Below, in pieces: positions 4,672 through 37,405 of a DNA stretch of 64,000 nt. The notes beneath the pieces are model-generated. The model had not been told where the DNA came from, did no database searches, and worked only from the letters and a program-made list of their open reading frames with translations. Both the position numbers and the translations under genes were made by a program. Positions within the stretch are counted from its first letter, which is position 1. Each line of letters opens with the position of its first letter. Origin of the DNA: an uncultured Planctomycetaceae bacterium (GTDB lineage: Bacteria; Planctomycetota; Planctomycetia; Planctomycetales; Planctomycetaceae); the NCBI GenBank assembly GCA_963815195.1, contig CAWFGE010000012.1, forward strand, positions 544,001 through 608,000, given 5' to 3'.

Positions 4672-5826
<1,155 letters not shown>

Positions 5827-19884: not shown

Positions 19885-20137
19885 GGTGCAAGCATCCTCA
19901 AGAGGTAATGGTCGCCGAGGGCCGATCATGTTACTACGAATGCTGGGGCTGTGGCCGGGCGAGAAAAATCTCACACGGCCCCAGGCCTCACATCTGCTTT
20001 TTCCTTGGAACATTCCTTTGCGCCCCAGCCACCGTGCACTTTCGACTTACAGTTTACAGTTTGAGATTTTAGTCGCTGGAACGGCGCGGGGCGATCCACT
20101 ACGCTGAAATGTGGGGAACCTTCGCGGCATTTTTTGG

Positions 20138-26935: not shown

Positions 26936-27892
26936 ATGTTCTTCCCCCGCTGGTGTTGTCTTTCAGTTCTTCTTCTGTGTTTCTTCGGATCGATCACGAG
27001 CCGCAGTTCGGCCGACGCAAGCGAAAACGCCGCCGTGGCGGAACCCGCCCCGCAGCGCGCCCGCTACAGCGTCACGAAGCCGCCCGCTGCCCTCGGCTTG
27101 CCGGACTATTATGAGAAGTACGTGGATGCGAGCGGGTATCCCGTGATTTCGTCCGGCAAGGTGAATGACTTTGCCCTCAAGGAGGCGGCCTATCTCGTCG
27201 ATTTGATGCTCGCGAAGCGGCCCGATGTCCGCCAGGCGATGGTCGAGAGCGGGTCCCGGCTGATCGTGATCGCCCACACCGAGTACACGACGGACATTCC
27301 CGAGTACGCCCGCCTCAAACCCAAAGATTACTGGGACGCGCGGGCGCGGGGCTTGGGAGGGTCTCGCACCGATCCCGTCTGCTCGTGCGCCGAAGAAAAC
27401 ATGCTCGCCTACCCGGGCGATCCGTACCGTGCGGAAAACATTCTGATTCACGAGTTCGCCCACAACATCCATCTCCGCGGCATGGTCCGCGTGGACCAGA
27501 CCTTCGACCGCCGGCTGAAGAAAGCCTACGACTCGGCGATGGCCCAGGGATTGTGGGCGGGCGTGTATGCTTCGACCAATCATCACGAATACTTCGCCGA
27601 GGGCGTGCAGTCGTGGTTCAACAACAATCGGCCGCCGGACCACGATCACAACCATGTCGACACCCGCAAGGAACTCCGCGAATACGATCCGGGACTGGCC
27701 GATCTTTGCGAAGAGGTCTTCGGAGACACCAAGTTGGTTTATACGAAACCCGCGACCCGGCTGACGGGCCATCTGGCCGGTTACGATCCGAAAACCGCCC
27801 CGAAATTCAACTGGCCGGAACGGTTGCAGAAACAACGCGACGAAATCCGCAAAAAAGCCCAGGCCCGCCGCGCCAAGGCGACCGGCCAATGA
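26936..27892 (+). CDS. Secreted zinc metallopeptidase-like protein
   Basis: Signal peptide; IHEFAH (HExxH) and EYFAEGVQSWF. Confidence 0.75.
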   Translation: MFFPRWCCLSVLLLCFFGSITSRSSADASENAAVAEPAPQRARYSVTKPPAALGLPDYYEKYVDASGYPVISSGKVNDFALKEAAYLVDLMLAKRPDVRQAMVESGSRLIVIAHTEYTTDIPEYARLKPKDYWDARARGLGGSRTDPVCSCAEENMLAYPGDPYRAENILIHEFAHNIHLRGMVRVDQTFDRRLKKAYDSAMAQGLWAGVYASTNHHEYFAEGVQSWFNNNRPPDHDHNHVDTRKELREYDPGLADLCEEVFGDTKLVYTKPATRLTGHLAGYDPKTAPKFNWPERLQKQRDEIRKKAQARRAKATGQ

Positions 27893-29082
27893 TTCTCCAC
27901 GTCGATATGGATGCGTTTTATGCTTCGGTCGAAGAGCGGGAGAATCCCCGACTCGTCGGAAAGCCGTTGATCGTCGGCGGCACGCCCGCAGGACGCGGCG
28001 TCGTCGCGGCGGCCAACTATGTCGTGCGGACGTTTGGCGTCCACAGCGCCATGCCCACCCGGACGGCGCTCCGGCTTTGCCCGGAGGCGATCGTGCTCCC
28101 GCCGCGGATGGAGTATTACGCCGAGACTTCCCGGCAGATTCGCGACGTGCTCTTCCGGTATACGCCTTTCGTCGAACCGCTCTCCTTGGACGAGGCCTTC
28201 CTCGATGTGACGGCGAGCGCAAAGCTGTTCGGCTCGGGGGCCGAAATCGCCAGGCAAATCAAGCAGGATATTCTCCGGGAAACCCGCCTGGTGGCGTCCG
28301 TGGGCGTGGCTCCCAACAAGTTCCTGGCGAAGATCGCCAGCGACCTGCAAAAACCCGACGGCCTGGTTGTCGTGGAACCGGACCGGATCGCCGAGTTTCT
28401 CGACCCCTTGCCCGTGGGCCGATTGTGGGGCGTCGGCAAAGTGACCGGCAGCGTGTTCGACCGCTGGGGCATCACCACCATCGGCGAACTGCGGCGGCTC
28501 GATCCAAAGATCCTGCACCAACAGTTCGGCCAGCAGGGAGAGCATTTCGCCAAACTGGCGCGGGGACTCGATGACCGCTCGGTCGTTCCCGATCGCGAAG
28601 CCAAGTCGATTTCCCACGAGACGACATTTGCCGCGGACATCTCCAACCGCGAGGCCCTCCGAGCGTGGTTATTGGAGCTGACGGAACACGTAGCCCGGCG
28701 GATGCGGCAGCAACAGCGGCGCGGCCGGACCGTGAACCTCAAGCTCCGCTTCGCCAACTTTCGCACGATCACGCGGGCTAAGACCTTGCCCCGCAGCACA
28801 AACGTGACGCAGGAAATTTGGCAAGCGGCGAGCGAATTGTTAATGCGCCACCTGCCCGAGTCGCATGCGGGCATCCGATTGTTGGGCGTCGGCGTCAGCA
28901 ACTTTTCGGCGGGCGAGGCTGTGCAGAAATCCCTGTTTGCGGAGGAAACGCATCAAAAACAGCAGCAACTCGACGAAGTGGCCGATGCAGTGCGGGCCAA
29001 GTTCGGGAACACCGCGCTCAACCGCGGCAGCGGTTTGCTCCACAACGCCCGGCACCGCCCCGAGCCCAAACCGAACGAATAA
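27889..29082 (+). CDS. dinB: DNA polymerase IV
   Basis: ILHVDMDAFYASVE, SLDEAFLD, KFLAKIASDLQKPDG motifs. Confidence 0.96.
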   Translation: MILHVDMDAFYASVEERENPRLVGKPLIVGGTPAGRGVVAAANYVVRTFGVHSAMPTRTALRLCPEAIVLPPRMEYYAETSRQIRDVLFRYTPFVEPLSLDEAFLDVTASAKLFGSGAEIARQIKQDILRETRLVASVGVAPNKFLAKIASDLQKPDGLVVVEPDRIAEFLDPLPVGRLWGVGKVTGSVFDRWGITTIGELRRLDPKILHQQFGQQGEHFAKLARGLDDRSVVPDREAKSISHETTFAADISNREALRAWLLELTEHVARRMRQQQRRGRTVNLKLRFANFRTITRAKTLPRSTNVTQEIWQAASELLMRHLPESHAGIRLLGVGVSNFSAGEAVQKSLFAEETHQKQQQLDEVADAVRAKFGNTALNRGSGLLHNARHRPEPKPNE

Positions 29083-29171
29083 AAAACTCCTGGAAAAGGC
29101 CGAGGAAACTTAAGAATTCGCCGAATCCTGAATCACCCCAGCGCATATATTGTTCTGTCGCCCAAAACCTG

Positions 29172-29200
29172 GCGAACCATTTCGCGGGTTGTGCGTCTAA
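29172..29200 (+). promoter_or_regulatory. Putative ECF sigma promoter for the tRNA/Y-RNA/TROVE locus
   Basis: GAACC-N15-CGTCTAA ending 8 nt before tRNA-Trp; resembles the ECF -35 GAAC / -10 CGTC consensus. Confidence 0.55.
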
Positions 29201-29208
29201 CCCTTCAC

Positions 29209-29279
29209 ACGCCTCTAGTGTAATGGCAGCATGACTGGCTCCAACCCAGTTGGTCAGGGTTCAAATCCTTGGGGGCGTG
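29209..29279 (+). tRNA. tRNA-Trp(CCA)
   Basis: Acceptor ACGCCTC/GGGGCGT; ACTGG-CTCCAAC-CCAGT; T-loop TTCAAAT. Confidence 0.9.
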
Positions 29280-29307
29280 CTGGCGAACGAACCTTCGCTC
29301 GCCAAAT

Positions 29308-29378
29308 GGGCTCATCGTCCAACAGGAAGATGCCGGTGTCGCAAGCCGGAGATCCCGGTGCAATTCCGGGTGGGTCCA
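29308..29378 (+). tRNA. tRNA-Ala(CGC)
   Basis: GGGCTCA/TGGGTCC with G3:U70; CCGGT-GTCGCAA-GCCGG; atypical T-loop TGCAATT. Confidence 0.85.
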
Positions 29379-29389
29379 CTCCTCAATAC

Positions 29390-29462
29390 AGTCCTGTGGC
29401 CTAGCGGCGAAGGCAGCTCCCTTACAAGGAGACGAGCGGGGGTTCGAGTCCCTCCAGGACTA
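29390..29462 (+). tRNA. tRNA-Val(TAC)
   Basis: AGTCCTG/CAGGACT; loop CTTACAA; T-loop TTCGAGT. Confidence 0.9.
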
Positions 29463-29470
29463 CTCACCAC

Positions 29471-29544
29471 GCCCAGATACCCCAACCGGCAGAGCGACTC
29501 GGCTTAAAACCGAGTGTTTGCAGGTTCGATTCCTGCTCTGGGTC
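29471..29544 (+). tRNA. tRNA-Leu(TAA), short variable loop
   Basis: GCCCAGA/TCTGGGT; CTCGG-CTTAAAA-CCGAG; 5-nt variable region; discriminator appears to be C. Confidence 0.8.
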
Positions 29545-29558
29545 GTGAAGACAAACTC

Positions 29559-29632
29559 GGCTCGGTAGGCAAATGGCAGACCACCTTGGCTTAGAACTAG
29601 GGATGCTGTGGGTTCGAGTCCCACCTGAGCCA
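29559..29632 (+). tRNA. tRNA-Leu(TAG), short variable loop
   Basis: GGCTCGG/CTGAGCC; CTTGG-CTTAGAA-CTAGG; T-loop TTCGAGT. Confidence 0.87.
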
Positions 29633-29645
29633 CTCAAACAAATAC

Positions 29646-29718
29646 GCCCTCGTGGAGCAGCGGAGTGCTCGCCTGCCTGTCACGCAGGAGATCGTCGGTT
29701 CAAATCCGATCGGGGGTG
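29646..29718 (+). tRNA. tRNA-Asp(GTC)
   Basis: GCCCTCG/CGGGGGT; CCTGC-CTGTCAC-GCAGG; G73. Confidence 0.92.
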
Positions 29719-29725
29719 CTGAAAT

Positions 29726-29802
29726 GGCACGGTACGCAAATGGAAAAGCGGCGAAGCTCAAACCTTCGTGATTGTCTGTGGGTTCGACTCCCTCCCGTGC
29801 TA
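29726..29802 (+). tRNA. tRNA-Leu(CAA)
   Basis: GGCACGG/CCGTGCT; CGAAG-CTCAAAC-CTTCG; reduced 9-nt variable region. Confidence 0.87.
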
Positions 29803-29815
29803 CTCAAATGATGAT

Positions 29816-29896
29816 GCGTCGGCTGGGCATTGGCGAGCCCAAGTGGCTGTAACCCACCCGCCTATCGCTGTGGCGGTTCGACTCCGTCCCGACGCA
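29816..29896 (+). tRNA. tRNA-Tyr(GTA)
   Basis: GCGTCGG/CCGACGC; loop CTGTAAC; 13-nt variable arm. Confidence 0.88.
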
Positions 29897-29904
29897 CTCA
29901 AAAA

Positions 29905-29977
29905 GGCCCGTTCGTCTATCGGTTAAGGACACCAGCCTCTCACGCTGGAAAGATGGGTTCGATTCCCGTACGGGTCA
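29905..29977 (+). tRNA. tRNA-Glu(CTC)
   Basis: GGCCCGT/ACGGGTC; CCAGC-CTCTCAC-GCTGG. Confidence 0.92.
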
Positions 29978-29984
29978 CTGACTT

Positions 29985-30054
29985 TGCAGGTGCGGCAGGT
30001 GCCCAATCGGCTTTCATAAGGCCGGTGTGCTCGGCTCGATACCGGGACCTGCAA
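29985..30054 (+). tRNA. Atypical tRNA(CAT) (Met or Ile2), reduced D-arm
   Basis: TGCAGGT/ACCTGCA; CGGCT-TTCATAA-GGCCG; T-loop CTCGATA. Confidence 0.7.
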
Positions 30055-30069
30055 CTTATCCAACATTGA

Positions 30070-30138
30070 CGCGGGTGAGCCAGTGCTCATTCAGGCCTCA
30101 TAAGCCAGAACAGCCGGGTGCGACTCCCGGACCCGCTA
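30070..30138 (+). tRNA. Atypical initiator-like tRNA(CAT)
   Basis: CGCGGGT/ACCCGCT with C1xU72 mismatch; loop CTCATAA; 4-nt D-loop; T-loop TGCGACT. Confidence 0.7.
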
Positions 30139-30146
30139 CTTGTCCA

Positions 30147-30221
30147 GGCCGGGTACGCAAACCGGAAAAGCGGGCAGGTCGAGAACGTGCGATTCTGTGG
30201 GTTCGACTCCCACTCTGGTCA
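30147..30221 (+). tRNA. tRNA-Leu(GAG), short variable loop, C33
   Basis: GGCCGGG/TCTGGTC; loop TCGAGAA; one G.G mismatch in the anticodon stem. Confidence 0.75.
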
Positions 30222-30228
30222 CTCGAAT

Positions 30229-30301
30229 GATCCCGTGGTCCAGTGGCGAAGACGCCTGGATGACACCCAGGAGATCGGTAGTTCGATTCTACCCGGGATC
30301 A
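30229..30301 (+). tRNA. tRNA-Val(GAC)
   Basis: GATCCCG/CGGGATC; CCTGG-ATGACAC-CCAGG. Confidence 0.9.
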
Positions 30302-30313
30302 CTTGCGACAACT

Positions 30314-30384
30314 GGTCTGTAGGTGTTGTGGCCGCACGCCGCTGTGGTAAGGCGGAAGACCGGGTTCAATCCCCGGACGGACCT
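30314..30384 (+). tRNA. tRNA-Thr(GGT)
   Basis: GGTCTGT/ACGGACC; CCGCT-GTGGTAA-GGCGG. Confidence 0.85.
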
Positions 30385-30394
30385 CTCGACAAAT

Positions 30395-30485
30395 GGGCCT
30401 GCATGCCGATGGAGGCGACTGATCCTTGCAAGATCGGTGGACCACCCCAAGGGGCGGTGCCCCGGTTCAACTCCGATCAGGTCCA
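30395..30485 (+). tRNA. tRNA-Ala(TGC) with an inserted hairpin in the variable region
   Basis: GGGCCTG/CAGGTCC with G3:U70; TGATC-CTTGCAA-GATCG; ~23-nt variable region; imperfect T-stem. Confidence 0.7.
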
Positions 30486-30496
30486 CTGAAGGAAAC

Positions 30497-30567
30497 GGGC
30501 TGATGGTCCAAGGGGAAGACACCGCCCTGGCGTGGCGGAAATCCGAGTTCGACTCTCGGTCAGTCCA
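30497..30567 (+). tRNA. tRNA-Ala(GGC)
   Basis: GGGCTGA/TCAGTCC with G3:U70; CCGCC-CTGGCGT-GGCGG. Confidence 0.87.
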
Positions 30568-30576
30568 CTCACATAC

Positions 30577-30664
30577 GGAAGGTAACCGAATTGGCTTAGG
30601 AAACTGGGTGCTAACCAGTCGCCCTGGAACTGGGGTTGGATGGGTTCGATTCCCCCACCTTCCG
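30577..30664 (+). tRNA. tRNA-Ser(GCT)
   Basis: GGAAGGT/ACCTTCC, G73; ACTGG-GTGCTAA-CCAGT; long variable arm. Confidence 0.82.
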
Positions 30665-30669
30665 CTTAT

Positions 30670-30741
30670 GGCTCGATGGTGAAACGGACATCATGTCTCG
30701 CTTCTAACGAGATGTTCCAGGTTCAAATCCTGGTCGAGCTA
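30670..30741 (+). tRNA. tRNA-Arg(TCT)
   Basis: GGCTCGA/TCGAGCT; TCTCG-CTTCTAA-CGAGA. Confidence 0.9.
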
Positions 30742-30775
30742 TTCCACATCACTGTGGAGGAAAAACTATCAACAT

Positions 30776-30849
30776 GGTGTCCGTGGTGTATGCGGTAGGC
30801 ACGCCTGCCTGTGAAGCAGGAAGTGAGGGTTCAACTCCCTTCGGTCACC
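30776..30849 (+). tRNA. tRNA-His(GTG)
   Basis: G-1:C73 pair; CCTGC-CTGTGAA-GCAGG. Confidence 0.9.
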
Positions 30850-30864
30850 CTTCGACAACGTCAT

Positions 30865-30938
30865 GCCGACGTGGCTCGACTAAGAAAGGCGCCGCTCTTG
30901 TAAAGCGGCTTATGCTGGTGCAAATCCAGTCGTCGGCT
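30865..30938 (+). tRNA. tRNA-Thr(TGT)
   Basis: GCCGACG/CGTCGGC; CCGCT-CTTGTAA-AGCGG; D-loop lacks GG; T-loop TGCAAAT. Confidence 0.82.
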
Positions 30939-31023
30939 CTTTTTGGTTTTGGTGGCTGAAATGTCGATTCACCATTATTCGCTTACGCGGCGCTGAGCTA
31001 TGTTCTGTCATGTGATTGAAAAA

Positions 31024-31095
31024 GTCCCGATGGTGTAACGGACAACACGAGACTTTCCTAAAGTTTCGATCCTGGTTCGATTCCAGGTCGGGATA
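31024..31095 (+). tRNA. tRNA-Arg(CCT)
   Basis: GTCCCGA/TCGGGAT; AGACT-TTCCTAA-AGTTT. Confidence 0.87.
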
Positions 31096-31106
31096 CTCAA
31101 CAACTG

Positions 31107-31177
31107 GCCTTGCGAGTGTGAGGGACGCACGGCGGTCTTCGGAACCGCAAGACGGGGTTCGACTCCCTGGCGAGGTG
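31107..31177 (+). tRNA. tRNA-Arg(TCG)
   Basis: GCCTTGC/GCGAGGT; GCGGT-CTTCGGA-ACCGC. Confidence 0.85.
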
Positions 31178-31265
31178 CTTGCAGAAGCGGAGAGCCAAGG
31201 GCGGAGAGCACAGAGCCAAACCGATTATATACCAAGCGTTCCGGCTCTCAACTCTCCGCTGTTTT

Positions 31266-31338
31266 GTCCTTGGAGTGTGCCGGATTCGCACGCGAGCCCG
31301 CGAAGCTCGCAGACCAGGTTCAATTCCTGGCGAGGACA
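31266..31338 (+). tRNA. tRNA-Arg(GCG), rare anticodon, C33
   Basis: GTCCTTG/CGAGGAC; CGAGC-CCGCGAA-GCTCG; T-loop TTCAATT. Confidence 0.8.
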
Positions 31339-31349
31339 TTTTCGATATG

Positions 31350-31421
31350 GACGCTGGAGCCGGATGGTGAGGCGGCTGCCTGCAAAGCAGCCAGAAGTGG
31401 GTTCGATTCCCACCGGCGTCT
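31350..31421 (+). tRNA. tRNA-Cys(GCA)
   Basis: GACGCTG/CGGCGTC, U73; GCTGC-CTGCAAA-GCAGC. Confidence 0.9.
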
Positions 31422-31423
31422 CT

Positions 31424-31496
31424 GACCGACCAACTGCCGGTTCGGACTACATCCTGTAAAGAGGCGTGTCTGAACTTATTCCTTCGTTGGAAGGTC
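31424..31496 (+). ncRNA. Y-RNA-like cassette A (minimal insert)
   Basis: CCAAC-TGCCG-GTTCGGAC-TACAT...GTCTGAAC-TTATTCCTTC-GTTGG closing stem shared with cassettes B-G. Confidence 0.65.
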
Positions 31497-31505
31497 GCGA
31501 TAAAA

Positions 31506-31679
31506 GCCCAACTGCCGGCTGGGAGTCCATGACGGTCCTAAGGTAGCGATGCCGGGCGACCGGCTAGTGAATGGCGCTCGAGTCTCTCCGAGATGAAGGG
31601 GCCAGTCAACAGTCAGCGATTGACTTCGCTGATACGGACGGCCGAAGCGAAAGCATCTCTTGGCCACCCTTCGTTGGGT
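31506..31679 (+). ncRNA. Y-RNA-like cassette B carrying a circularly permuted 23S rRNA H67-H71 mimic
   Basis: Shared closing stem GCCCAAC/GTTGGGT and GGCTGGGAG/CTCTTGGCC; insert contains ACGGTCCTAAGGTAGCGA, GAATGGCG and a terminal GACGGCCG. Confidence 0.7.
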
Positions 31680-31690
31680 CACAACAAAAC

Positions 31691-31800
31691 GGCGACTGCC
31701 AGTTCGGAATACATCGGCTGTCCAGTGAGTCTGGCGATCGCTTTGCGATTGGCGGGTTCGATTCCCGTACGGAATTGTTTCTGACCACAACTTCGTCGCC
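31691..31800 (+). ncRNA. Y-RNA-like cassette C (two hairpins plus a tRNA T-arm)
   Basis: GGCGAC/GTCGCC closing stem; insert CCAG-tgagt-CTGG, CGATCGC-ttt-GCGATTG, GCGGG-TTCGATT-CCCGT. Confidence 0.65.
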
Positions 31801-31810
31801 ACCAAAAAAC

Positions 31811-31946
31811 GACCGACTGCCGAATTGGAGTCCATGGCTCATAACCCGGGAGTGTGGGTTCGAATCCCACCGGCGCCACTTGAAACCGAGCGCCGTAGCT
31901 TAATGGCAGAGCACCGTAAGTCTCTGGTTCAACCACCTCGTCGGTC
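31811..31946 (+). ncRNA. YrlA-like Y RNA, cassette D (circularly permuted tRNA with CAT anticodon-loop remnant)
   Basis: GACCGAC/GTCGGTC closing stem; order CTCATAA, T-arm GTGGG-TTCGAAT-CCCAC, loop-closed acceptor CGGCGC/GCGCCG, D-arm GCTT-AATGGCA-GAGC. Confidence 0.85.
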
Positions 31947-32093
31947 ATCTTGCATTTGAGGATAAAGGATTGAGCAATGTGTGTCCGTGTGGCGAGTTAC
32001 GCGATGCTATTTACAGGCGGCCACTGATCGTCGTCTGCATCGCGTGAATCGTACCACGACCATTCCATCCTTTTTGACTCAAGCGTGAGAACT

Positions 32094-32462
32094 ATGAACA
32101 CCACGACAGAAATCTGCCCTGAAACGACGGTCGCTGCGCGGATCGCGGGTGAGGACATCGCCTGCGGTGACTTTGTCAGCGTCCTCAACGAGGTCATCGA
32201 GTTGCCTTCGTTCCTATGGAACGGCTCTGCGGTTTCGCTCACAGCGGAAGAACCCGTTCGCATCCGTTACGCGGCGAGCGACGCCGGCCAGCCTTACCAG
32301 GTGATCGGCATTTGCCTGCCCTTCGTCTATGCCAAGACGCCGGGCGGGTCTGTTGCGACCATCGACACGCGCCAGCGCCAGTTGGTGCGACTCGACGAAA
32401 ACTGCGCCCGCAGGGTTTGGCAAGAACTGACGAAACCGCGTTCCGAGAAGAAGCGAAAATAG
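32094..32462 (+). CDS. Hypothetical protein embedded in the Y-RNA cassette array
   Basis: 122-aa ORF with a plausible globular composition, co-oriented with the RNA locus; no family recognised. Confidence 0.7.
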   Translation: MNTTTEICPETTVAARIAGEDIACGDFVSVLNEVIELPSFLWNGSAVSLTAEEPVRIRYAASDAGQPYQVIGICLPFVYAKTPGGSVATIDTRQRQLVRLDENCARRVWQELTKPRSEKKRK

Positions 32463-32474
32463 ATTTTGAAAACA

Positions 32475-32620
32475 CCCGACTGCTTGCTGGAGTCCATAAA
32501 ACTGTTGTTTTCGAAAACGAAGACCGTGGGTTCGAATCCCACCAAACACTTTCCATCGAAAGTTGTTTGTGGCGGAGCGGCCAAACGCGACAGAAAACCT
32601 CTGACATACTCTTCGTCGGG
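32475..32620 (+). ncRNA. YrlA-like Y RNA, cassette E (circularly permuted class II tRNA)
   Basis: CCCGAC/GTCGGG closing stem; CTGT/ACAG anticodon stem, variable hairpin GTTTT-CG-AAAAC, T-arm, closed acceptor CAAACA/TGTTTG, D-arm GCG-GAGCGGCCAAA-CGC. Confidence 0.82.
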
Positions 32621-32637
32621 ATTTTGAAACGAAAACC

Positions 32638-32759
32638 CACTCGACTGCCGGTGTGGAGTACATGGCAAAGGATCGAAAGATCTAGCGGGTTCAAATCCCG
32701 CCCCGTCCGCTCCAAGAAAACGAACGGACGGGTTCTCTGTCCCAAAACTTCGTCGAGTG
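32638..32759 (+). ncRNA. Y-RNA-like cassette F (T-arm plus closed acceptor-like stem, no D-arm)
   Basis: CACTCGAC/GTCGAGTG closing stem; GATC-GAAA-GATC, GCGGG-TTCAAAT-CCCGC, CCCGTCCG/CGGACGGG. Confidence 0.72.
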
Positions 32760-32774
32760 TTTTTTTAAGAAAAC

Positions 32775-32829
32775 GATCCGACTGCCGGTGTGGAGTCGGA
32801 TCATTCCCTTCGTCGAGTTCGTGCTCGAC
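32775..32829 (+). ncRNA. Insert-less cassette G in the leader of the TROVE gene
   Basis: CCGACTGCCGGTGTGGAGT and CCCTTCGTCG motifs with no cargo between them; alternative hairpins GATCCGAC/GTCGGATC and GTCGAG/CTCGAC. Confidence 0.5.
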
Positions 32830-32852
32830 TGCATTTAAGAAAGGAAAGAAAG

Positions 32853-34463
32853 ATGGCCAACAAGACTTTGTTTTCCAGCAGCAAGAATTCTCTGCCGCGG
32901 ACGGATACCTATAACGAGGCCGGAGGCCAGGCTTACCAGTTTTCGCCGAAGCATGCGCTGGCGCAGATGGCGGCGACCGGCTGCTTCAATGGGGTTTTCT
33001 ACGCGAGCGCCAAGAGCCAACTGGATGAGACGCGGAAGCTGATCGACCAGGTGGATGACAACGTCTTCCTGGCGAAGCTGGCGGTTTACGCGCGTGAGCG
33101 AGCCTACATGAAGGACATGCCGGCGGCGCTGTTGGTCGTTCTGTCCAAGCGGGACACCGAACTGTTGCACCGCGTGTTCGATCGGGTGGTGGACAACGGC
33201 CGCGTGCTGCGAACCATGTTTCAGATGATCCGTTCGGGACAGTTCGGCCGCACCAGCCTGTCGTCCAGTTTGCAGCGGGCGTTCCAGCGGTGGTTGAACG
33301 AGGCGTCGGTCGGGAAGCTCTTGTCGGCTTCGATCGGAAACGATCCGAGTCTGCGGGACGTGCTGCGGATGGCTCGACCAACGCCGAAAGATAACGAACG
33401 GCGTGCGCTGTTCGGTTGGCTGACGGACAAGGAGACCGAGAAGTGGGCTCCCGCCACCCAAGCCGACCTGCCGGCGCAGGTCCAGTCGCTGATCGCGTAC
33501 CGCCAGGCGGAAACCGCCGAGATGCAGGCGCTCATCCTGGGCGATCTGTCGGTGCGTTGGGATCTCTTGGCGGATGCGGCCAAGGGTCCGCTGGTCTGGA
33601 AGGGCATCGCCCGCCAGATGGGACCGCAGGCCCTGCGGATGAACCTCAACACGCTTCTGCGTCACGAGGTTCTGAAGGATGCCGAGATGGTGGATTACGT
33701 GGCCAGCCGCCTGGCGGATGCGAATGAAATCCATCGCTCGCGGCAGTTTCCGTACCAGTTCCTGGCGGCATACCTGAACGCCTCGGCTGAGGTTCCGCAA
33801 AAGATCAAGGCCGCTTTGCATCAGGCGGCTGAGATTGCTTGCGGCAACGTGCCAGAATTGCCGGGTCCGGTCGTCATCGGTCTGGACACGTCCGGTTCGA
33901 TGTCCATGCCGGCCACGGGTTGGCGGGGCCGCGGTGCGACCAGCAAGATGCGGTGCGTCGATGTGGCGGCTTTGTTCGCCGCGGCGATTCTCCGCCGCAA
34001 CCCAGACAGCGTGATCGTTCCATTCGACACGCAAGCGTACGACGTCCGCATCGATCCGGCCGACTCGATCCTGAGCCTGTCGGAGCGGCTGGCGAAGTAC
34101 GGCGGCGGGGGAACGGACTGTTCGATTCCCCTCCGCACGGCCAACACAAAGTTCAATAGGCAAGCGTTTGCGGGCTGCGTGCTGGTCAGCGACAACGAGA
34201 GTTGGGTCGGCACGGGCCGCTACGGCTCGACCGGCGTGATGACCGAGTGGCAGACGTTCGTCAAGAACCAGACGCTCTTGGGCATCGCCGATCCAAAGCT
34301 GGTTTGCATCGACATCCAGCCCTATGGTTCGACGCAGGCTCCCGAGCGAGACAACATCCTGAACATCGGCGGCTTCAGTGACGCGGTGTTCCACGTCGTC
34401 GCCTCGTACCTCGCAGGCGACGCCGCCCGGTTCGTCGCCGAGGTGGAGTCGATCGAGCTGTAA
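32853..34463 (+). CDS. rsr: Ro60/Rsr-like TROVE domain RNA-binding protein with C-terminal vWA domain
   Basis: [10 protein letters not shown]-terminus, [23 protein letters not shown] motif [38 protein letters not shown] upstream. Confidence 0.93.
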
Positions 34464-34478
34464 TGGCTCTGTTGAATG

Positions 34479-34520
34479 GAAACGCCCCTGGTCTGAGCGA
34501 TCGGACCCGGGGCGTTTTTC
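34479..34520 (+). terminator. Intrinsic terminator after the TROVE gene
   Basis: AAACGCCCC-t-GGTCTGA-gcga-TCGGACC-c-GGGGCGTTT hairpin followed by a T run. Confidence 0.75.
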
Positions 34521-34648
34521 GTTCTGACAAGGAGTAAAAGGCCTTTTTTGACGGCCCTGGCGATTATTTCCAAAAATATTTCAGATATATTATTGACATG
34601 ACAATAGATTATATGTCAAGTTATTGCGAAGGAGGTGACTCAGAACCC

Positions 34649-35131
34649 ATGGCGCGCAGCAGACTTCAAGATGAGCTGAAAAAGAAACGATCGTTCGATT
34701 CGCTGGAGCAGCCGGCGATTTTGAACATCCTGCGGACGAGCGATCAGTTTCAGAATCGTTTCGGGCGATTGTTTCGGGAATACGGTCTGACCTCATCCCA
34801 GTACAACGTGCTGCGAATCCTCCGGGGCGAAGGCCGGCCGATGCCTTGCCTGGAAATTGCCGAGCGGATGATACAAGTGGTTCCGGCCATGACGGGGCTC
34901 TTGGATCGGTTGGAGAAGCAGGGACTCGTGTCGCGGGAACGCTGCACGGAAGACCGCCGCGTGGTTTACGTGGACCTGACAAAGAAGGCGAAGGAATTGC
35001 TCAAGGAGATGGACGCTCCCGTGAGCGAACTCCACCACGAACTTGTCGGCCATCTCACGCGGGCGGAACTGAAAGAACTCAGCCGCCTGTTGGAAAAGGC
35101 GCGAACGGCTCTTGATGAAAGCCAAGGTTGA
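34649..35131 (+). CDS. MarR family transcriptional regulator
   Basis: YGLTSSQYNVLRIL...LLDRLEKQGLVSR...DRRVVYVDLT; GAAGGAGG RBS. Confidence 0.93.
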   Translation: MARSRLQDELKKKRSFDSLEQPAILNILRTSDQFQNRFGRLFREYGLTSSQYNVLRILRGEGRPMPCLEIAERMIQVVPAMTGLLDRLEKQGLVSRERCTEDRRVVYVDLTKKAKELLKEMDAPVSELHHELVGHLTRAELKELSRLLEKARTALDESQG

Positions 35132-35199
35132 TCTTTTTTTGGCCGTTTACATTATATGTAAACTGACTATATAAAATCTAATTAAAGAAAGGCGAAACG

Positions 35200-35955
35200 A
35201 TGAGCTTAAGGGGAAAAGTGGCTTTGGTGACAGGCGGAACGTCCGGCATTGGCAAGGAAACGGCACTTGAGCTTGCAAAGGCGGGGGCAAAGGTTGTCCT
35301 GGCGGGCCGCCGGGCGGAGGAGGGGAATGCCGTGGCGGCCGAGATCGCCTCGGCGGGCGGGGAGGCGATTTTCGTCGAAACCGACGTGACGAAAGAGGAT
35401 CAGGTCCGGCGCCTGGTGGAGGAAGCCGTCCGGCATTTTGGCCGTTTGGACATTGCCTTCAACAATGCCGGGGTCGAACAGACCGGACCGATCGCGGAGT
35501 TTACCGAACAGGACTACCGCAGGGTGTTTGACATCAACGTCCTCGGCGTGTTCCTCAGCTTGAAATACGAGATTCCCGCCATGCTCCAAACCGGGGGCGG
35601 CTCGATCATCAATACGTCGAGCATCCTCGGCCGCGTCGCCGTCCCGGGGGCCGGCATCTACAACGCCTCGAAGCACGCCGTGGAAGGCATCACCAAGACG
35701 GCCGCCCTCGAACTGGCGGGGCAAGGCATTCGGGTCAATGCCGTCGCTCCCGGTGCCGTCGCCACGGATATGATCGATCGTTTCGCCGGTGAAGAGGGCA
35801 GCGAACATCGGGAACAGCTCGCTTCGCAGCATCCGATGGGACGGCTCGGACATTCCCGGGAAATCGCCGCGGCCGTGCTCTATTTGGCGTCGGATGCCGC
35901 GTCGTTCACGACGGGGATGTCGCTGCCCGTCGATGGCGGGTACCTGGCGAAATAA
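35200..35955 (+). CDS. SDR family oxidoreductase
   Basis: TGGTSGIG, NNAG, YNASK motifs. Confidence 0.95.
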   Translation: MSLRGKVALVTGGTSGIGKETALELAKAGAKVVLAGRRAEEGNAVAAEIASAGGEAIFVETDVTKEDQVRRLVEEAVRHFGRLDIAFNNAGVEQTGPIAEFTEQDYRRVFDINVLGVFLSLKYEIPAMLQTGGGSIINTSSILGRVAVPGAGIYNASKHAVEGITKTAALELAGQGIRVNAVAPGAVATDMIDRFAGEEGSEHREQLASQHPMGRLGHSREIAAAVLYLASDAASFTTGMSLPVDGGYLAK

Positions 35956-35988
35956 TCACACACAACAAACCGATTTCGAGGTGATGAC

Positions 35989-36687
35989 ATGATTCAAGTT
36001 CGCAAAGCGCACGAGCGCGGCCATGCCGACCACGGCTGGCTCGAGACGTACCACACATTTTCATTTTCAACCTACCACGACCCGAACCACATGCGGTTTC
36101 GGTCGCTACGGGTGATGAACGAGGACTTTGTCGCCCCGGGGCAAGGCTTCGGGACGCATCCCCATCATGACATGGAGATCGTCACGTACGTGCTCGAAGG
36201 GGCGCTCGAACACAAGGACTCGATGGGCCACGGCGAAGTCCTGCGGCCCGGAGAGTTTCAGCGAATGTCCGCGGGAACCGGAATCACGCACAGCGAATTC
36301 AACCCTTCCCCCACCGAGCCGGTTCATCTCTACCAGATTTGGCTGTTTCCCGAACGCAAAGGGATCGAGCCCAGTTACGAGCAGAAGCGATTTCCCGAGG
36401 AACAGCGGCACAATCGGCTGCAGCTGGTGGCTTCTCGGGAGGGAGTTGACGGCTCATTGCTCATCCACCAGGATGCCCGCATCTATTTGTCGAGCCTTGA
36501 TGAAGGCCGGGCCGTTTCCCACGAACTTTCGCCGGGCCGGCACGCGTGGCTGCAAGTGCTCCGAGGCGATGTTTCCCTCAATGGCCTCGAACTTATGACA
36601 GGCGACGCCGCCGGCGTCAGCGGCGAAAGCACGCTGGAGATCCTGGCGAACCGGCCGGCCGAGATCATGCTCTTCGATCTGAATTAG
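35989..36687 (+). CDS. Pirin family protein (YhhW-like)
   Basis: GFGTHPHHDMEI, HKDSMG, MSAGTGITHSE motifs. Confidence 0.95.
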   Translation: MIQVRKAHERGHADHGWLETYHTFSFSTYHDPNHMRFRSLRVMNEDFVAPGQGFGTHPHHDMEIVTYVLEGALEHKDSMGHGEVLRPGEFQRMSAGTGITHSEFNPSPTEPVHLYQIWLFPERKGIEPSYEQKRFPEEQRHNRLQLVASREGVDGSLLIHQDARIYLSSLDEGRAVSHELSPGRHAWLQVLRGDVSLNGLELMTGDAAGVSGESTLEILANRPAEIMLFDLN

Positions 36688-36922
36688 ACCCGGGTCTTGC
36701 GGTTTTTCGTGTGCATGATTCTATTCCTTCTGCACAATCTCCGAAGGGGAGGTAAGATCCGTGGTTGATCATCACACAAAAAGATCATCAGCGTCCGCCC
36801 CCGATTCGCCGGAAGACCCCCTTTTCTCATGTTGTCACCTATCCAGGGGATCGCTATGATGCGAAACGGGGACGGAATCTGTTTCGATCAACGGCAGTCG
36901 TAAAGGAGGCACGTCAGTTCCT

Positions 36923-37405
36923 ATGCGAATCGGATTGGGACACGATGTGCACCGGCTGGTCGAGGGCCGCACGCTGGTTTTGGGCGGCGTGGCGATTGAA
37001 TACCACCTGGGGCCCGACGGACACAGCGATGGCGATGTGCTTTTGCATGCCCTGACCGATGCCGTGTTGGGAGCCGCCGGCCTGGGCGACATCGGCACGT
37101 GGTTCCCGGACACCGACCCGAAGTGGAAAGATGCCGATTCCGCGCAGTTTCTCGAAGCCGCGGTCGCGCTGGTTCGCGAACGGGGCTGGAGAATTGGCAA
37201 TGTCGATTGCACAATTTTCGCCGAACAGCCGAAACTGAAAGAAGATAAACCCAGAATTCGCGGCCGGGTGGCGGAGATTCTGGGCATAAGCGCGGACGCG
37301 GTGAACATCAAAGCCAAGACCGGCGAGAAGGTCGGCCCCATCGGCCGCGGAGAAGCCATCGCCGCCGACGCCGTGGTTTTGTTGTTGCCTATGACATCAG
37401 AGTGA
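36923..37405 (+). CDS. ispF: 2-C-methyl-D-erythritol 2,4-cyclodiphosphate synthase
   Basis: MRIGLGHDVH, GHSDGDVLLHA, GDIG.WFPDTD motifs. Confidence 0.96.
   Translation: MRIGLGHDVHRLVEGRTLVLGGVAIEYHLGPDGHSDGDVLLHALTDAVLGAAGLGDIGTWFPDTDPKWKDADSAQFLEAAVALVRERGWRIGNVDCTIFAEQPKLKEDKPRIRGRVAEILGISADAVNIKAKTGEKVGPIGRGEAIAADAVVLLLPMTSE

What the first reader, a model, noticed from the sequence alone, without database searches (positions are those of the whole stretch)
29172..34520. Whole locus: ECF promoter, 24-tRNA array, mimic RNAs, Ro60 and terminator as a putative translation-stress/defence operon
Seen: all parts are on the + strand and tightly packed, with a promoter-like motif at the start and a terminator after the TROVE gene. 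No integrase or phage genes flank the locus. Known: cryptic tRNA arrays induced by translational stress are described in cyanobacteria, and Ro60/Y RNA loci respond to tRNA damage and are often linked to rtcB. No rtcB is visible in this window. Inference: an inducible system that supplies replacement tRNAs and decoy RNAs when tRNA or rRNA is attacked.
Basis: partly seen in the sequence, partly recalled or inferred. Interest (0 to 1): 0.85.

Follow-up and report, generated by a model that had tools for sequence, protein, structure and literature searches.

The report
Spare-tRNA, Y RNA and Ro60 island
A 5.4-kb horizontally spread island in a planctomycete chromosome packs 24 spare tRNA genes, several tRNA-mimicking Y RNAs and the RNA quality-control protein Ro60 behind one stress-type promoter, which looks like a back-up kit for a damaged translation apparatus.

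Summary
Window 29100-34520 (+) carries, in order: an ECF-type promoter motif, 24 tRNA(-like) genes, 6-7 YrlA-type Y RNA modules, a 122-aa ORF of unknown family, an intact Ro60/Rsr gene and a strong terminator.

It is one copy of an island found patchily across Planctomycetota. DNA similarity to relatives starts at the first tRNA and stops at the terminator, and the flanks are unrelated. Of 52 related Ro60 loci with at least 3 kb upstream, 40 have same-strand tRNAs upstream; arrays reach 40 genes.

The promoter motif has 5 exact hits in the 8.9-Mb genome. Four precede tRNA-array elements, and it recurs at the same place in 10 relatives.

Full-length relatives carry a conserved ~33-codon leader ORF between promoter and first tRNA. 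Its stop codon lies in a box complementary to a terminator hairpin, which fits a translation-sensing attenuator. The window copy has lost this leader and the first third of the array.

Co-transcription, induction and any decoy or defence role are untested; no RNA data were found.

tRNA arrays and Y RNA/Ro60 loci are each known. I did not find their fusion, promoter or leader in print. This scan noted the array-Ro60 linkage before in another genome.

The parts
29100..29173 (+). Island 5' edge: region upstream of the -35 element, with a GCGCAT box (29141-29146), a GAATTC-centred palindrome-like stretch and an A-rich tract
   Evidence: Side-by-side view of 14 promoter regions: GCGCAT(C) and GGAATAATTCC-like boxes recur upstream of the motif in several relatives. 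Seen by eye only, not tested statistically.
29174..29199 (+). ECF-type promoter motif: -35 GAACC (29174-29178), 15-nt spacer, -10 CGTCTA (29194-29199). The predicted start lies a few nt before tRNA-Trp.
   Evidence: Unique in the window. Only 5 exact hits in the 8.87-Mb genome, 4 of them in front of tRNA-array elements. 10 of 12 hits in the 80 related loci lie 215-310 nt upstream of the array leader hairpin. 'ECF-type' is my recalled reading of the GAAC/CGTC pattern; no tool tested it.
29209..31422 (+). Array of 24 tRNA(-like) genes: Trp, Ala(CGC)-like, Val-TAC, Leu-TAA, Leu-TAG, Asp, Leu-CAA, Tyr, Glu-CTC, two CAU elements, Leu-GAG, Val-GAC, Thr-GGT, Ala-TGC, Ala-GGC, Ser-GCT, Arg-TCT, His, Thr-TGT, Arg-CCT, Arg-TCG, Arg-GCG, Cys. 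About 11 genes per kb.
   Evidence: ARAGORN 21; Rfam; folds. Colinear with arrays of relatives. 55-70% identical to housekeeping isoacceptors, except Glu-CTC (96%) and Cys (88%).
29984..30140 (+). Two atypical CAU-anticodon tRNA-like elements (29984-30060, 30066-30140)
   Evidence: Cloverleaf-like minimum-energy folds, z -2.1 and -1.8. Rfam Tymo_tRNA-like 33.3 bits, below its threshold of 40. Missed by ARAGORN in the window but called as 69-71-nt Met-CAT at the same position in relatives.
31179..31264 (.). 86-nt spacer between Arg-TCG and Arg-GCG, probably a scar. Relatives have Arg-CCG or inserted genes among these Arg tRNAs.
   Evidence: Long hairpin, -29.7 kcal/mol, z -2.5. A sigma-70-like match (11 of 12) on the minus strand at 31251-31224. 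SPFH and other genes are inserted among the Arg tRNAs in relatives.
31430..31490 (+). Y-like module M1: short, no T-arm, starts 8 nt after tRNA-Cys
   Evidence: Signature plus closing-stem scan; fold; class found in 15 related loci.
31506..31679 (+). Y-like module M2 (174 nt)
   Evidence: class found in 17 related loci.
31691..31800 (+). Y-like module M3, with a T-arm-like hairpin
   Evidence: class found in 5 related loci.
31811..31946 (+). Y RNA module M4: YrlA-type tRNA mimic with closing stem, junction stem, T-arm, acceptor-like stem and D-arm
   Evidence: Rfam YrlA 31.9 bits, E 1e-4, below the threshold of 69. 44 members in 37 loci. In a 41-sequence alignment, 16 of 28 consensus pairs show compensatory changes.
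32094..32462 (+). orf122: conserved protein of unknown family, embedded among the Y modules
   Evidence: 223 homologues at E<=1e-3, all unnamed, from Planctomycetota where labelled. No Pfam or NCBIfam match. AlphaFold2 pLDDT 77: six strands plus a C-terminal helix. No significant fold match; weak SH3/KOW-like ribosomal-protein hits at E>=0.1. Found at this place in 11 of 80 loci.
32475..32620 (+). Y-like module M5, with a T-arm
32638..32759 (+). Y-like module M6, with a T-arm
   Evidence: Fold z -4.5; class found in 12 related loci.
32775..32830 (+). M7: short Y-signature hairpin in the rsr 5' leader, 23 nt before the start codon
   Evidence: Fold z -3.8. Not picked up by the module scan. In most relatives the last module's 3' strand, CTTCGTCGGATC plus a T-run, directly precedes the GGAGG ribosome-binding site of rsr.
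32853..34463 (+). rsr: Ro60/TROVE protein, 536 aa, intact
   Evidence: Pfam vWA_Ro60 1.5e-13 and TROVE 1.8e-11. Matches 2NVO over residues 15-523, E 1e-19. DTSGS (DxSxS) motif read from the translation. 149 relatives; the 80 kept are 70-91% identical.
34480..34520 (+). Intrinsic terminator, which is also the 3' edge of the island
   Evidence: -37.2 kcal/mol, z -6.9. DNA similarity to relatives ends at 34516-34529.

Best explanation
The locus is a 5'-truncated, leaderless copy of a horizontally spread Planctomycetota island. The full island is a single-strand operon: ECF-type promoter, then leader-peptide attenuator, then a long array of supernumerary tRNAs, then tandem YrlA-type Y RNAs (with or without a small protein), then Ro60, then a terminator.

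Shown:
- the parts and their order;
- island boundaries at about 29100/29206 and 34529;
- unrelated flanks;
- patchy distribution;
- tRNAs of a lineage foreign to the housekeeping set but structurally conserved;
- Y RNA structure with covariation;
- a promoter motif specific to array starts.

Inferred:
- An alternative (ECF) sigma factor starts transcription a few nt before tRNA-Trp.
- One precursor is cut by the tRNA-processing enzymes into 24 tRNAs and the Y RNAs. tRNA-Cys would act as the punctuation that frees the first Y RNA.
- The distal part of the transcript serves as mRNA for orf122 and Ro60.
- The products are a spare decoding set plus a Ro60-Y RNA particle that handles damaged or misfolded tRNA or rRNA when translation is under attack or stress.

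In full-length relatives, read-through into the array is predicted to occur when ribosomes fail to reach the leader ORF's stop codon. That leaves the GUGACAC box free to pair with the 5' arm of the terminator. In this window that switch is deleted, so control would rest on the sigma factor only.
For: Anatomy.

Boundaries and flanks:
- blastn of window 27000-37000 against 80 loci gives coverage from 29206 to 34529 and none in the flanks, apart from one DinB hit.
- MarR, pirin, IspF and CysS are found in 0 of 80 loci.

Linkage: of 52 loci with at least 3 kb upstream, 40 have at least 1 same-strand tRNA, 31 at least 5, 23 at least 10 and 15 at least 20. The last tRNA is nearly always Cys.

Y modules:
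- found in 57 of 60 loci, against 2 modules in 62 control regions downstream of Ro60;
- 6 of the 7 genome-wide signature hits lie in this locus;
- 16 of 28 pairs are compensatory in the YrlA-like class.

Promoter: 4 of 5 genome-wide hits precede array elements. 10 of 12 hits in relatives are at the conserved position. The surrounding promoter sequence is also alike.

Attenuator in relatives and in this genome's C5 and C8 arrays:
- 21 of 23 leaders have an ATG-started ORF of 23 or more codons ending at the TGA inside the GTGAC box, 32-51 nt before the hairpin; the peptides are alike (MMSLWSS...PLRL).
- Terminator helix: 95% of cells paired, against 26-45% when slid.
- Alternative box:arm helix: 87.5% paired, against 28-48% when slid; 4 of 10 pairs show compensatory changes; covariation is reached by 3 of 500 shuffles.

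Foreign and supernumerary tRNAs: 55 other tRNAs cover 44 anticodons; the array is 55-70% identical to them.

tRNA structure is kept: for example Cys 14 of 20 and Asp 17 of 21 pairs are compensatory across loci.

Horizontal spread:
- Ro60 is matched in 20 of 201 phylum genomes and 0 of 8 same-family genomes.
- DinB within the family is only 55-69% identical, against 70-91% for Ro60 across the kept loci.
- An HNH endonuclease sits inside the arrays of 10 relatives.

tRNA-damage theme:
- RtcB lies directly after Ro60 in L053 and G190, and an RNA ligase lies inside the G190 island.
- The other planctomycete Ro60 clade (43-45% identical) sits beside RtcR, RtcB or RtcA in 4 of 7 loci and has no array in 7 of 7.
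Against: - No expression data of any kind, so co-transcription, processing, charging and induction are all inferred.
- The window copy lacks the leader and about the first 17 tRNAs. A second Ro60 copy in this genome is a pseudogene with 3 in-frame TGA. Arrays in relatives range from 40 genes to none. Decay is therefore common, and array and Ro60 can each persist alone: 12 of 52 loci have no upstream tRNA, and the C5 and C8 arrays have no Ro60.
- 5 of the 22 firm tRNAs, and both CAU elements, miss Rfam's tRNA threshold. Two have C where U33 is universal. The Leu tRNAs lack the long variable arm.
- The structural-conservation figures are biased, because only ARAGORN-detected genes were counted.
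- YrlA membership by Rfam score is not met.
- The sigma factor is unidentified. 'ECF-type' is a recalled consensus.
- The antiterminator covariation rests on few events (5 cells), and one leader (L021) breaks a pair.
Confidence: 0.6

Rival explanations
1. Decaying selfish cargo. The island spreads by homing-endonuclease-assisted recombination and is neutral or slightly costly. This copy is a silent remnant on its way to loss, with no role in the host.
For: - The copy is truncated and its leader is lost.
- The other copies in the genome are fragmentary, and the second Ro60 is a pseudogene.
- Array size in relatives ranges from 40 genes to none.
- An HNH endonuclease lies in the arrays of 10 relatives.
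- Distribution is patchy.
- Kim et al. 2016 call such clusters degenerate and possibly dispensable (PMC4807772: passages of the main text and of S2 Text).
Against: - The Ro60 ORF is intact and 91% identical to its best relative.
- The promoter motif is retained exactly and abuts the first tRNA.
- The terminator is retained.
- Abundant compensatory changes in tRNAs and Y RNAs show long-term selection on structure.
- Identity elements that I read by eye (G3:U70 in the three Ala tRNAs, U73 in Cys) are kept.
Confidence: 0.2
2. Self-service quality control. Ro60 and the Y RNAs travel with the array because the array's own aberrant, misfolding-prone tRNAs and its long precursor need triage. They would not be there to rescue host translation.
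For: - Array tRNAs deviate from canonical form: low Rfam scores, C33, short Leu tRNAs, a 92-nt Ala.
- Ro60 is known to bind misfolded small RNAs (established knowledge, recalled).
- The linkage is tight and always in one orientation.
Against: - Y RNAs plus Ro60 persist without any array in 12 of 52 loci, still with Y modules.
- Arrays persist without Ro60 (C5 and C8).
- The leader-peptide switch points to sensing of cellular translation.
Confidence: 0.1
3. Codon supplementation. The array is kept because it supplies decoders for rare codons of horizontally acquired genes. The Ro60 linkage would be incidental.
For: - Kim et al. 2016 propose this for tRNA-Ile-UAU, which in planctomycetes occurs only in such clusters.
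- This array adds Arg-GCG, an anticodon absent from the other 55 tRNAs.
Against: - 20 of 21 ARAGORN-called anticodons duplicate housekeeping ones.
- Ile-UAU is not in this copy; it is on contig C8.
- This idea does not explain the conserved Y RNAs, Ro60, promoter or attenuator.
Confidence: 0.05
4. Prophage or phage-derived anti-defence cargo. The island would be a remnant of a large planctomycete phage that carried tRNAs, Y RNA and Ro60, as actinobacteriophages do, to outrun host tRNA nucleases.
For: - 375 phage records encode Ro60-like proteins, mostly large Mycobacterium and Streptomyces phages. That these phages are tRNA-rich is my recollection; one search did not test it.
- Phage tRNAs that evade tRNA-cleaving defences are described (PMC11555353, PMC13096335: search listing and start of abstract only).
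- 16 of 20 array tRNAs have anticodon loops that differ from their housekeeping isoacceptors.
Against: - The best phage Ro60 is only 41% identical (Myxococcus phage Mx1).
- No relative was found in IMG/VR with the patterns used.
- No phage or integrase genes in this window or among 102 flank ORFs from relatives' loci.
- In Bxz1 the Ro-like gene has only 2 tRNAs, 3 kb away.
Confidence: 0.05

Closest known systems
[quoted passage not shown] PCC 7120 (Santamaria-Gomez et al. 2021, PMC8421152: abstract and passages read)
   Same: Dozens of same-strand, tightly spaced, supernumerary tRNA genes. Patchy distribution ascribed to horizontal transfer. An HNH homing endonuclease is associated (here in 10 relatives, not in the window). 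The paper lists Planctomycetes among phyla with L-arrays. Induction by impaired translation is shown there and only predicted here, from the leader of relatives.
   Different: The words Ro60, TROVE, Rsr, Y RNA, attenuat-, leader peptide and terminator do not occur in that paper's main text. A later paper gives the Anabaena operon a repressor, TrcR (PMC10272220: start of abstract only). Here there is an ECF-type promoter plus, in full-length copies, a leader-ORF/terminator switch, and the array runs on into Y RNAs and rsr.
rsr-yrlBA-rtcBA RNA repair operon of Salmonella, and YrlA RNAs next to Ro60 (Chen et al. 2014, PMC4201824: abstract and passages read; Hughes et al. 2020, PMC7790460: start of abstract only)
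   Same: Ro60 with tandem tRNA-like Y RNAs encoded next to it. M4 has the YrlA order of T-arm, acceptor-like stem and D-arm inside a closing stem. The thematic tie to tRNA damage is shared. RtcB follows Ro60 in 2 island relatives.
   Different: The Y RNAs lie upstream on the same strand, 6-7 per locus. The Rfam YrlA score is below threshold. The 5'-strand motif reads NCGACUG rather than GNCGAA(N)G. There is no RtcR or sigma-54 control and no RtcA/B in this window; a tRNA array takes that place. Chen et al. discarded hits that overlapped tandem tRNA genes, and 'Planctomyc' does not occur in their main text.
Degenerate tRNA gene clusters of Planctomycetes (Kim et al. 2016, PMC4807772: passages of the main text and of S2 Text read)
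   Same: Very likely the same objects: clusters of 2-28 low-scoring tRNA genes, fast-evolving, thought to be horizontally acquired, and carrying the only tRNA-Ile-UAU.
   Different: That work treats them as degraded and possibly dispensable, apart from Ile-UAU. It does not mention Ro60/TROVE in connection with them: there is none in the main text or in S2 Text, and TROVE appears only in a gene-family table. Supplementary file 13 was not searched.
tRNA array units and Ro-like proteins of large actinobacteriophages and mycobacterial plasmids (Morgado & Vicente 2018, PMC5966550; PMC12803027: listings and starts of abstracts only; Bxz1 record AY129337)
   Same: Many tRNAs and a Ro60 homologue occur together in one mobile genome. 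Such arrays are discussed as anti-defence cargo.
   Different: The proteins are only about 23% identical. In Bxz1 the Ro-like gene is not joined to an array. No phage context here.
Leader-peptide transcription attenuators (trp, his, erm-type; recalled textbook knowledge)
   Same: In full-length relatives: a short translated ORF, alternative RNA pairings, and an intrinsic terminator just before the structural genes.
   Different: Here the stop codon itself lies in the antiterminator strand, so finishing translation would favour termination, and any stall or lack of translation would favour read-through. No run of regulatory codons was seen. This element is absent from the window copy.

Membership tests
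Ro60 / TROVE (Rsr) | TROVE domain followed by a vWA domain, at family score thresholds | tested here: met
   PF05731 44.3 bits (cut-off 23) and PF25045 51.4 bits (cut-off 27.7).
Ro60 / TROVE (Rsr) | Full-length similarity to a solved bacterial Ro60 | tested here: met
   2NVO_A: residues 15-523 against 23-533, E 1.1e-19. Also matches phage and Xenopus Ro60.
Ro60 / TROVE (Rsr) | DxSxS metal-site motif in the vWA domain (motif recalled) | tested here: met
   GLDTSGSMS read in the translation.
YrlA (Rfam RF02553) | Score at or above the family's gathering threshold | tested here: not met
   Best module (31834-31935) scores 31.9 bits against 69. The other modules give no YrlA hit at E<=10.
YrlA (Rfam RF02553) | Architecture: closing stem, then a junction enclosing a T-arm, an acceptor-like stem and a D-arm | tested here: met
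   The Rfam alignment covers model positions 1-114. In the 41-sequence alignment all five helices are present and 16 of 28 pairs have compensatory changes. This holds for the M4 class only.
YrlA (Rfam RF02553) | Encoded within 4 kb of a Ro60 gene (criterion of Chen et al. 2014) | tested here: met
   All modules lie 23-1423 nt upstream of rsr.
YrlA (Rfam RF02553) | GNCGAAN0-1G motif in the 5' strand (Chen et al. 2014) | tested here: not met
   The invariant 5' strand reads CGACUGC (alignment): C instead of the second A, and the first G is not conserved.
YrlA (Rfam RF02553) | Bound by Ro60; carries tRNA modifications | not testable with these tools
   Needs immunoprecipitation and RNA chemistry.
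tRNA array unit / L-array | At least 20 tRNA genes at 2 or more per kb (Tran et al. 2016 definition, from the abstract), in the same orientation | tested here: met
   21-24 genes in 2.2 kb, all on the + strand.
tRNA array unit / L-array | Supernumerary to a complete housekeeping set | tested here: met
   55 other tRNAs with 44 standard anticodons covering all isotypes found. The array adds only Arg-GCG.
tRNA array unit / L-array | Sporadic distribution indicating horizontal transfer | tested here: met
   Linked Ro60 matched in 20 of 201 phylum genomes and 0 of 8 same-family genomes. Flanks unrelated. This is measured on Ro60, not on the arrays themselves.
tRNA array unit / L-array | Induction by translational stress (Anabaena) | not testable with these tools
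   No RNA run listed.
ECF sigma-dependent promoter | -35 GAAC and -10 CGTC-type elements about 15-17 nt apart (consensus recalled) | tested here: met
   GAACC-N15-CGTCTA, conserved in 14 aligned copies.
ECF sigma-dependent promoter | Recognition by an identified ECF sigma factor; mapped transcription start | not testable with these tools
   45 sigma-70-family genes in the genome. Only loose look-alike motifs upstream of two of them (C13:858332 and C8:600875).
Operon (single transcription unit) | One transcript spanning the array, the Y RNAs and rsr | not testable with these tools
   Indirect only: one strand, gaps mostly 3-15 nt, no + strand terminator-like site with a convincing stem inside the locus, and promoter and leader retained in front of shortened arrays and of an array-less Y RNA-rsr locus (L021).

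The most novel reading that the evidence does not exclude
The island is a self-contained, transferable 'translation rescue' module. An ECF-type promoter and a ribosome-progress-sensing leader peptide release, only when decoding falters, three things:
- an orthogonal set of tRNAs whose divergent anticodon stem-loops escape the tRNA nucleases or toxins that caused the stall;
- a battery of Y RNAs;
- Ro60, which clears or sequesters the damaged tRNAs.

This would 'replace' where the rtc operon 'repairs'. The arrangement also suggests that YrlA-type Y RNAs arose from, and are still matured as part of, tRNA arrays.
Probability: 0.2. Interest if true: 0.9.

Novelty: new variant of a known kind. Interest (0 to 1): 0.72.

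Why it matters
Two puzzles are physically joined here: what bacterial Ro60-Y RNA particles are for, and why bacteria keep 'cryptic' long tRNA arrays. The join is conserved in dozens of genomes under shared control elements.

That gives concrete, testable predictions:
- a defined promoter motif;
- a 33-codon leader whose translation should gate read-through;
- tRNA-Cys as a processing signal for Y RNAs;
- a natural contrast between rtc-linked and array-linked Ro60 clades in one phylum.

Cultured carriers are available for experiments (Stieleria marina, Aeoliella straminimaris, per record titles).

If the rescue model holds, it would be a new logic for coping with tRNA-targeting stress. It would also point to a plausible evolutionary cradle for tRNA-like Y RNAs.

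Tried and rejected
- Expression data: the look-up of sequencing runs listed no RNA holder for the locus.
- A loose motif scan of the genome for the Y signature was uninformative (hundreds of chance hits). It was replaced by the paired-signature scan.
- Insertion-site reconstruction from same-family genomes failed. DinB was matched in only 5 of 12 of them, and the SDR query hit many paralogues.
- Sigma-70-type promoter scan: no + strand site upstream of the array.
- Sigma-54 reading of the promoter region: rejected by eye, because the TGG/GC elements are not conserved among the copies.
- The nearby ECF sigma/FecR pair in the window (18205-20010, minus strand): its upstream region does not show the motif, and it is not linked to the island in relatives.
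- Function of orf122: Pfam, NCBIfam, Foldseek against the PDB, and the ESM Atlas gave no family.
- Rfam on a full-length leader (L001 1990-2300): no family at E<=1.
- IMG/VR: no relative of this Ro60 with the six peptide patterns used.
- The idea that the Y modules are on the minus strand (their 3' strand is the reverse complement of GACGAAG): rejected, because the T-loops are canonical only on the + strand and the Rfam hit is on the + strand.
- Cognate sigma factor: only two loose look-alike motifs upstream of 45 sigma genes; not pursued.
- Literature searches for the array-Ro60 link returned nothing relevant. The two papers holding both 'Planctomycet' and 'Ro60' concern autoimmunity.

Full report
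**What is there**

ARAGORN finds 21 tRNA genes in the 64-kb window, all on the + strand between 29209 and 31422. Rfam adds one at 29308-29378 (44 bits). Two CAU-anticodon elements at 29984-30060 and 30066-30140 fold as cloverleaf-like structures. They occupy the place of 69-71-nt 'Met-CAT' genes in relatives. Seven of the 24 miss Rfam's tRNA threshold.

Directly after tRNA-Cys come repeated modules. Each starts with (stem)GAC-UGCCGGUKU-GGAGU and ends with CUUCGUC(stem), and the closing stems co-vary among the copies. A 122-codon ORF lies among the modules.

rsr (32853-34463) encodes an intact Ro60:
- Pfam TROVE and vWA_Ro60 are both above cut-off.
- It matches D. radiodurans Rsr over its full length.
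- It carries a DTSGS motif.

A strong intrinsic terminator follows (-37.2 kcal/mol, z -6.9). The neighbours are ordinary chromosomal genes. DinB ends at 29082. MarR, an SDR, pirin, IspF and CysS follow. No integrase, phage gene or RtcB is among the 60 ORFs scanned. Pfam families such as DUF1559, DUF1501 and sulfatase place the organism among the Planctomycetota.

**It is an island**

The genome holds 97 tRNAs. The 55 outside the three arrays form a complete set with 44 standard anticodons. The array tRNAs are only 55-70% identical to their housekeeping isoacceptors, with two exceptions: Glu-CTC (96%) and Cys (88%). The array adds one anticodon, Arg-GCG.

The Ro60 protein has 149 relatives in the species-level genome collection. 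The 80 kept are 70-91% identical and, by record title, all planctomycete.

- blastn of window 27000-37000 against those loci gives coverage that begins at 29206 and ends at 34516-34529, with none in the flanks apart from one DinB hit.
- The downstream genes of the window occur in 0 of 80 loci.
- 102 flank ORFs from relatives' loci are a mixed bag of chromosomal genes, with no integrase or phage gene.
- In an even sample of the phylum, Ro60 is matched in 20 of 201 genomes, in 0 of 8 same-family genomes (all at least 99% complete), and at 70% identity or more in only one other genome.
- DinB within the family is only 55-69% identical.

I read this as horizontal spread. It is an inference from distribution, not from a tree.

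Among the 52 related loci with at least 3 kb of DNA upstream of Ro60:

| Same-strand tRNAs upstream | Loci |
|---|---|
| at least 1 | 40 |
| at least 5 | 31 |
| at least 10 | 23 |
| at least 20 | 15 |
| none | 12 |

The largest arrays have 40 genes (L034) and 36 genes (L001). Gene order is colinear across loci and ends with Arg-Arg-Arg-Cys. The window's array corresponds to the part from Trp onward.

Y-type modules are found upstream of Ro60 in 57 of 60 loci with at least 1.5 kb upstream, at 1-9 per locus. The control, 62 regions downstream of Ro60, gave 2 modules. In this genome, 6 of the 7 signature hits lie in the locus. So the linkage is conserved, but the arrays are in all states of decay and the core of Y RNAs plus Ro60 can stand alone.

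**The RNAs are real**

The M4 class has 44 members in 37 loci. A 41-sequence alignment gives a consensus with 28 pairs, 16 of which show compensatory changes. The consensus has:
- a lower stem;
- a junction stem;
- a T-arm;
- an acceptor-like stem;
- a D-arm.

This is the YrlA layout, and Rfam aligns M4 to YrlA end to end. The score, however, is only 31.9 bits against a threshold of 69. The 5'-strand motif also differs from the published GNCGAA(N)G (PMC4201824, passages). I therefore call these YrlA-like in architecture, not members by the curated score.

Array tRNA families aligned across loci keep the cloverleaf with many compensatory pairs, for example Cys 14 of 20, Arg-TCG 14 of 21 and Asp 17 of 21. 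The caveat is that only ARAGORN-called genes entered these alignments.

**The promoter**

Genome-wide the exact pattern GAACC-N14-17-CGTCTA occurs 5 times; reversed-sequence controls gave 27.

| Hit | Position relative to array elements |
|---|---|
| This locus | 10 nt before tRNA-Trp |
| Contig C5 | about 200 nt before the leader hairpin of the C5 array |
| Contig C8 | about 220 nt before the leader hairpin of the C8 array |
| Contig C21 | 47 nt before an orphan tRNA-Cys that is 88% identical to the array's Cys |
| Fifth hit | not in front of an array element |

In the 80 related loci there are 12 hits. Ten of them are on the + strand, 215-310 nt upstream of the array leader. The surrounding sequence is also alike. 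The island thus brings its own promoter. Calling it ECF-type rests on my recalled GAAC/CGTC consensus, and the sigma factor is unknown.

**A leader that the window copy has lost**

In full-length arrays the first tRNA (Phe) is preceded by a conserved GTGACAC box, about 35 nt of spacer, a GC-rich hairpin (CCCGGTGTC...GACACCGGG) and a T-run.

- In 21 of 23 leaders, including this genome's C5 and C8 arrays, an ATG-started ORF of 23 or more codons ends exactly at the TGA inside the box. The peptides are related: MMSLWSS...G(R/Y)FA(D/E)Q...PLRL.
- The box is complementary to the 5' arm of the hairpin.
- The terminator helix is 95.4% paired, against 26-45% in slid controls.
- The alternative box:arm helix is 87.5% paired, against 28-48% when slid. 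Four of its 10 pairs show compensatory changes, and its covariation score is reached by 3 of 500 shuffles.

My reading is inferred. A ribosome that reaches the stop codon covers the box, so the terminator forms. A ribosome that stalls earlier, or absent translation, leaves the box free to pair, and transcription runs into the array. That would make the island respond to failing translation, as was shown experimentally for the Anabaena L-array (PMC8421152, abstract), though by a different device. No Rfam family matches the leader.

In the window the promoter is fused directly to tRNA-Trp. The leader and roughly 17 tRNAs are missing.

**Other cargo and the tRNA-damage theme**

Relatives carry the following genes inside the arrays; none of them is in the window:
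- an HNH endonuclease, between His and Thr-TGT or Trp (10 loci);
- an SPFH protein (5 loci);
- a four-helix-bundle '23S IVS' protein (10 loci).

orf122 has 223 unnamed homologues. It gives a six-strand-plus-helix model (pLDDT 77). Neither fold nor feature searches find a match.

RtcB follows Ro60 in L053 and in G190, and G190 also has an RNA ligase inside the island. Seven planctomycete loci of the other Ro60 clade (43-45% identical) have no array. Four of them sit next to RtcR, RtcB or RtcA. So within one phylum Ro60 travels either with repair enzymes or with spare tRNAs.

**What is known, and what I could not find in print**

- Long arrays, including in Planctomycetes, and their horizontal spread are published (PMC8421152; PMC4758250, listing only).
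- Planctomycete 'degenerate tRNA clusters' are published (PMC4807772, passages and S2 Text).
- YrlA RNAs beside Ro60 are published (PMC4201824).
- Searches combining tRNA array, Ro60, Y RNA, Rsr, TROVE, YrlA and Planctomycet- found no paper that links them.
- One supplementary file of PMC4807772 (file 13) was not searched.
- This scan had already noted, on another genome, a decayed array upstream of Y RNAs and Ro60 in planctomycetes (e1-2630880). My results agree with it and add the promoter, the leader and the clade contrast.

**Verdict**

The unit, its promoter and the conserved linkage are well founded. The inducible back-up function is a reasoned inference, strengthened by the leader in relatives, but it is untested and the leader is absent from this particular copy. 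The decoy and defence roles remain speculation.

Noticed in passing
G000 contigs C5:30370-32190 (-) and C8:349717-353170 (-): Two further partial arrays (9 and 12 tRNAs), each with the promoter motif, the leader ORF and the hairpin but no Ro60. C8's Trp and Leu-TAA are 94-95% identical to those at the start of the window's array. This suggests a split or recombination between island copies.
   Followed up: partly
G000:C10:430116-431348 (-): A second Ro60 copy, 81% identical, with 3 in-frame TGA. It has no Y-module signature and no tRNAs nearby, so it is probably a pseudogene.
   Followed up: partly
G000:C21:28547-28932: The promoter motif lies 47 nt before an orphan tRNA-Cys that is 88% identical to the array's Cys. 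An odd tRNA-like element with a 4-nt anticodon call lies 190 nt further on. This may be a minimal remnant of the island.
   Followed up: no
G000:C1:69247-70553: The genome's only RtcB match is split into two overlapping frames, with a TAA inside the first. It may be frameshifted or an assembly error.
   Followed up: no
window 29471-30222 (Leu genes) and 30395-30486 (Ala-TGC): All four Leu tRNAs of the array are 74-78 nt and lack the long variable arm of the housekeeping Leu tRNAs (82-86 nt); this is conserved across relatives. Ala-TGC is 92 nt with an insertion in the variable region (88-94 nt in L002). Leu-GAG and Arg-GCG have C at position 33.
   Followed up: partly
window 31224-31251 (-): The best sigma-70-like match of the locus (TTGAGA-16-TATAAT, 11 of 12) lies on the minus strand inside the 86-nt scar between two Arg tRNAs.
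   Followed up: no
window 30940-31023: An 84-nt spacer after tRNA-Thr-TGT begins with TTTTTGGTTTTGG and has no stable fold (z -0.2). It might be a weak internal stop or a scar. In relatives the HNH gene lies just upstream of this tRNA.
   Followed up: no
L001-L046, the 110 nt before the Ro60 start: In most relatives the last Y module ends with CTTCGTCGGATC plus a T-run about 10 nt before the GGAGG ribosome-binding site of rsr. This arrangement could attenuate rsr expression or let Ro60 regulate its own expression.
   Followed up: no
window 46795-48141 (-): ORF with bacterial archaeo-eukaryotic release-factor-like domains (baeRF families 3, 7 and 6; E down to 1.7e-33), 12 kb downstream of the island.
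   Followed up: no
L013:5761-6957 and L015:2088-3284: A full EF-Tu gene lies within 2 kb downstream of Ro60 in two relatives.
   Followed up: no
L096 (G190:C3) 7797-8576 (-) and 3321-4727 (-): In the one same-class genome with a 75%-identical Ro60, an RNA ligase (PF09414) lies between the 16-tRNA array and the Y region, and RtcB follows Ro60.
   Followed up: partly
window 29100-29173, and the same region in relatives: Upstream of the -35 element several copies share a GCGCAT(C) box and a GGAATAATTCC-like palindrome, which could be an operator.
   Followed up: no
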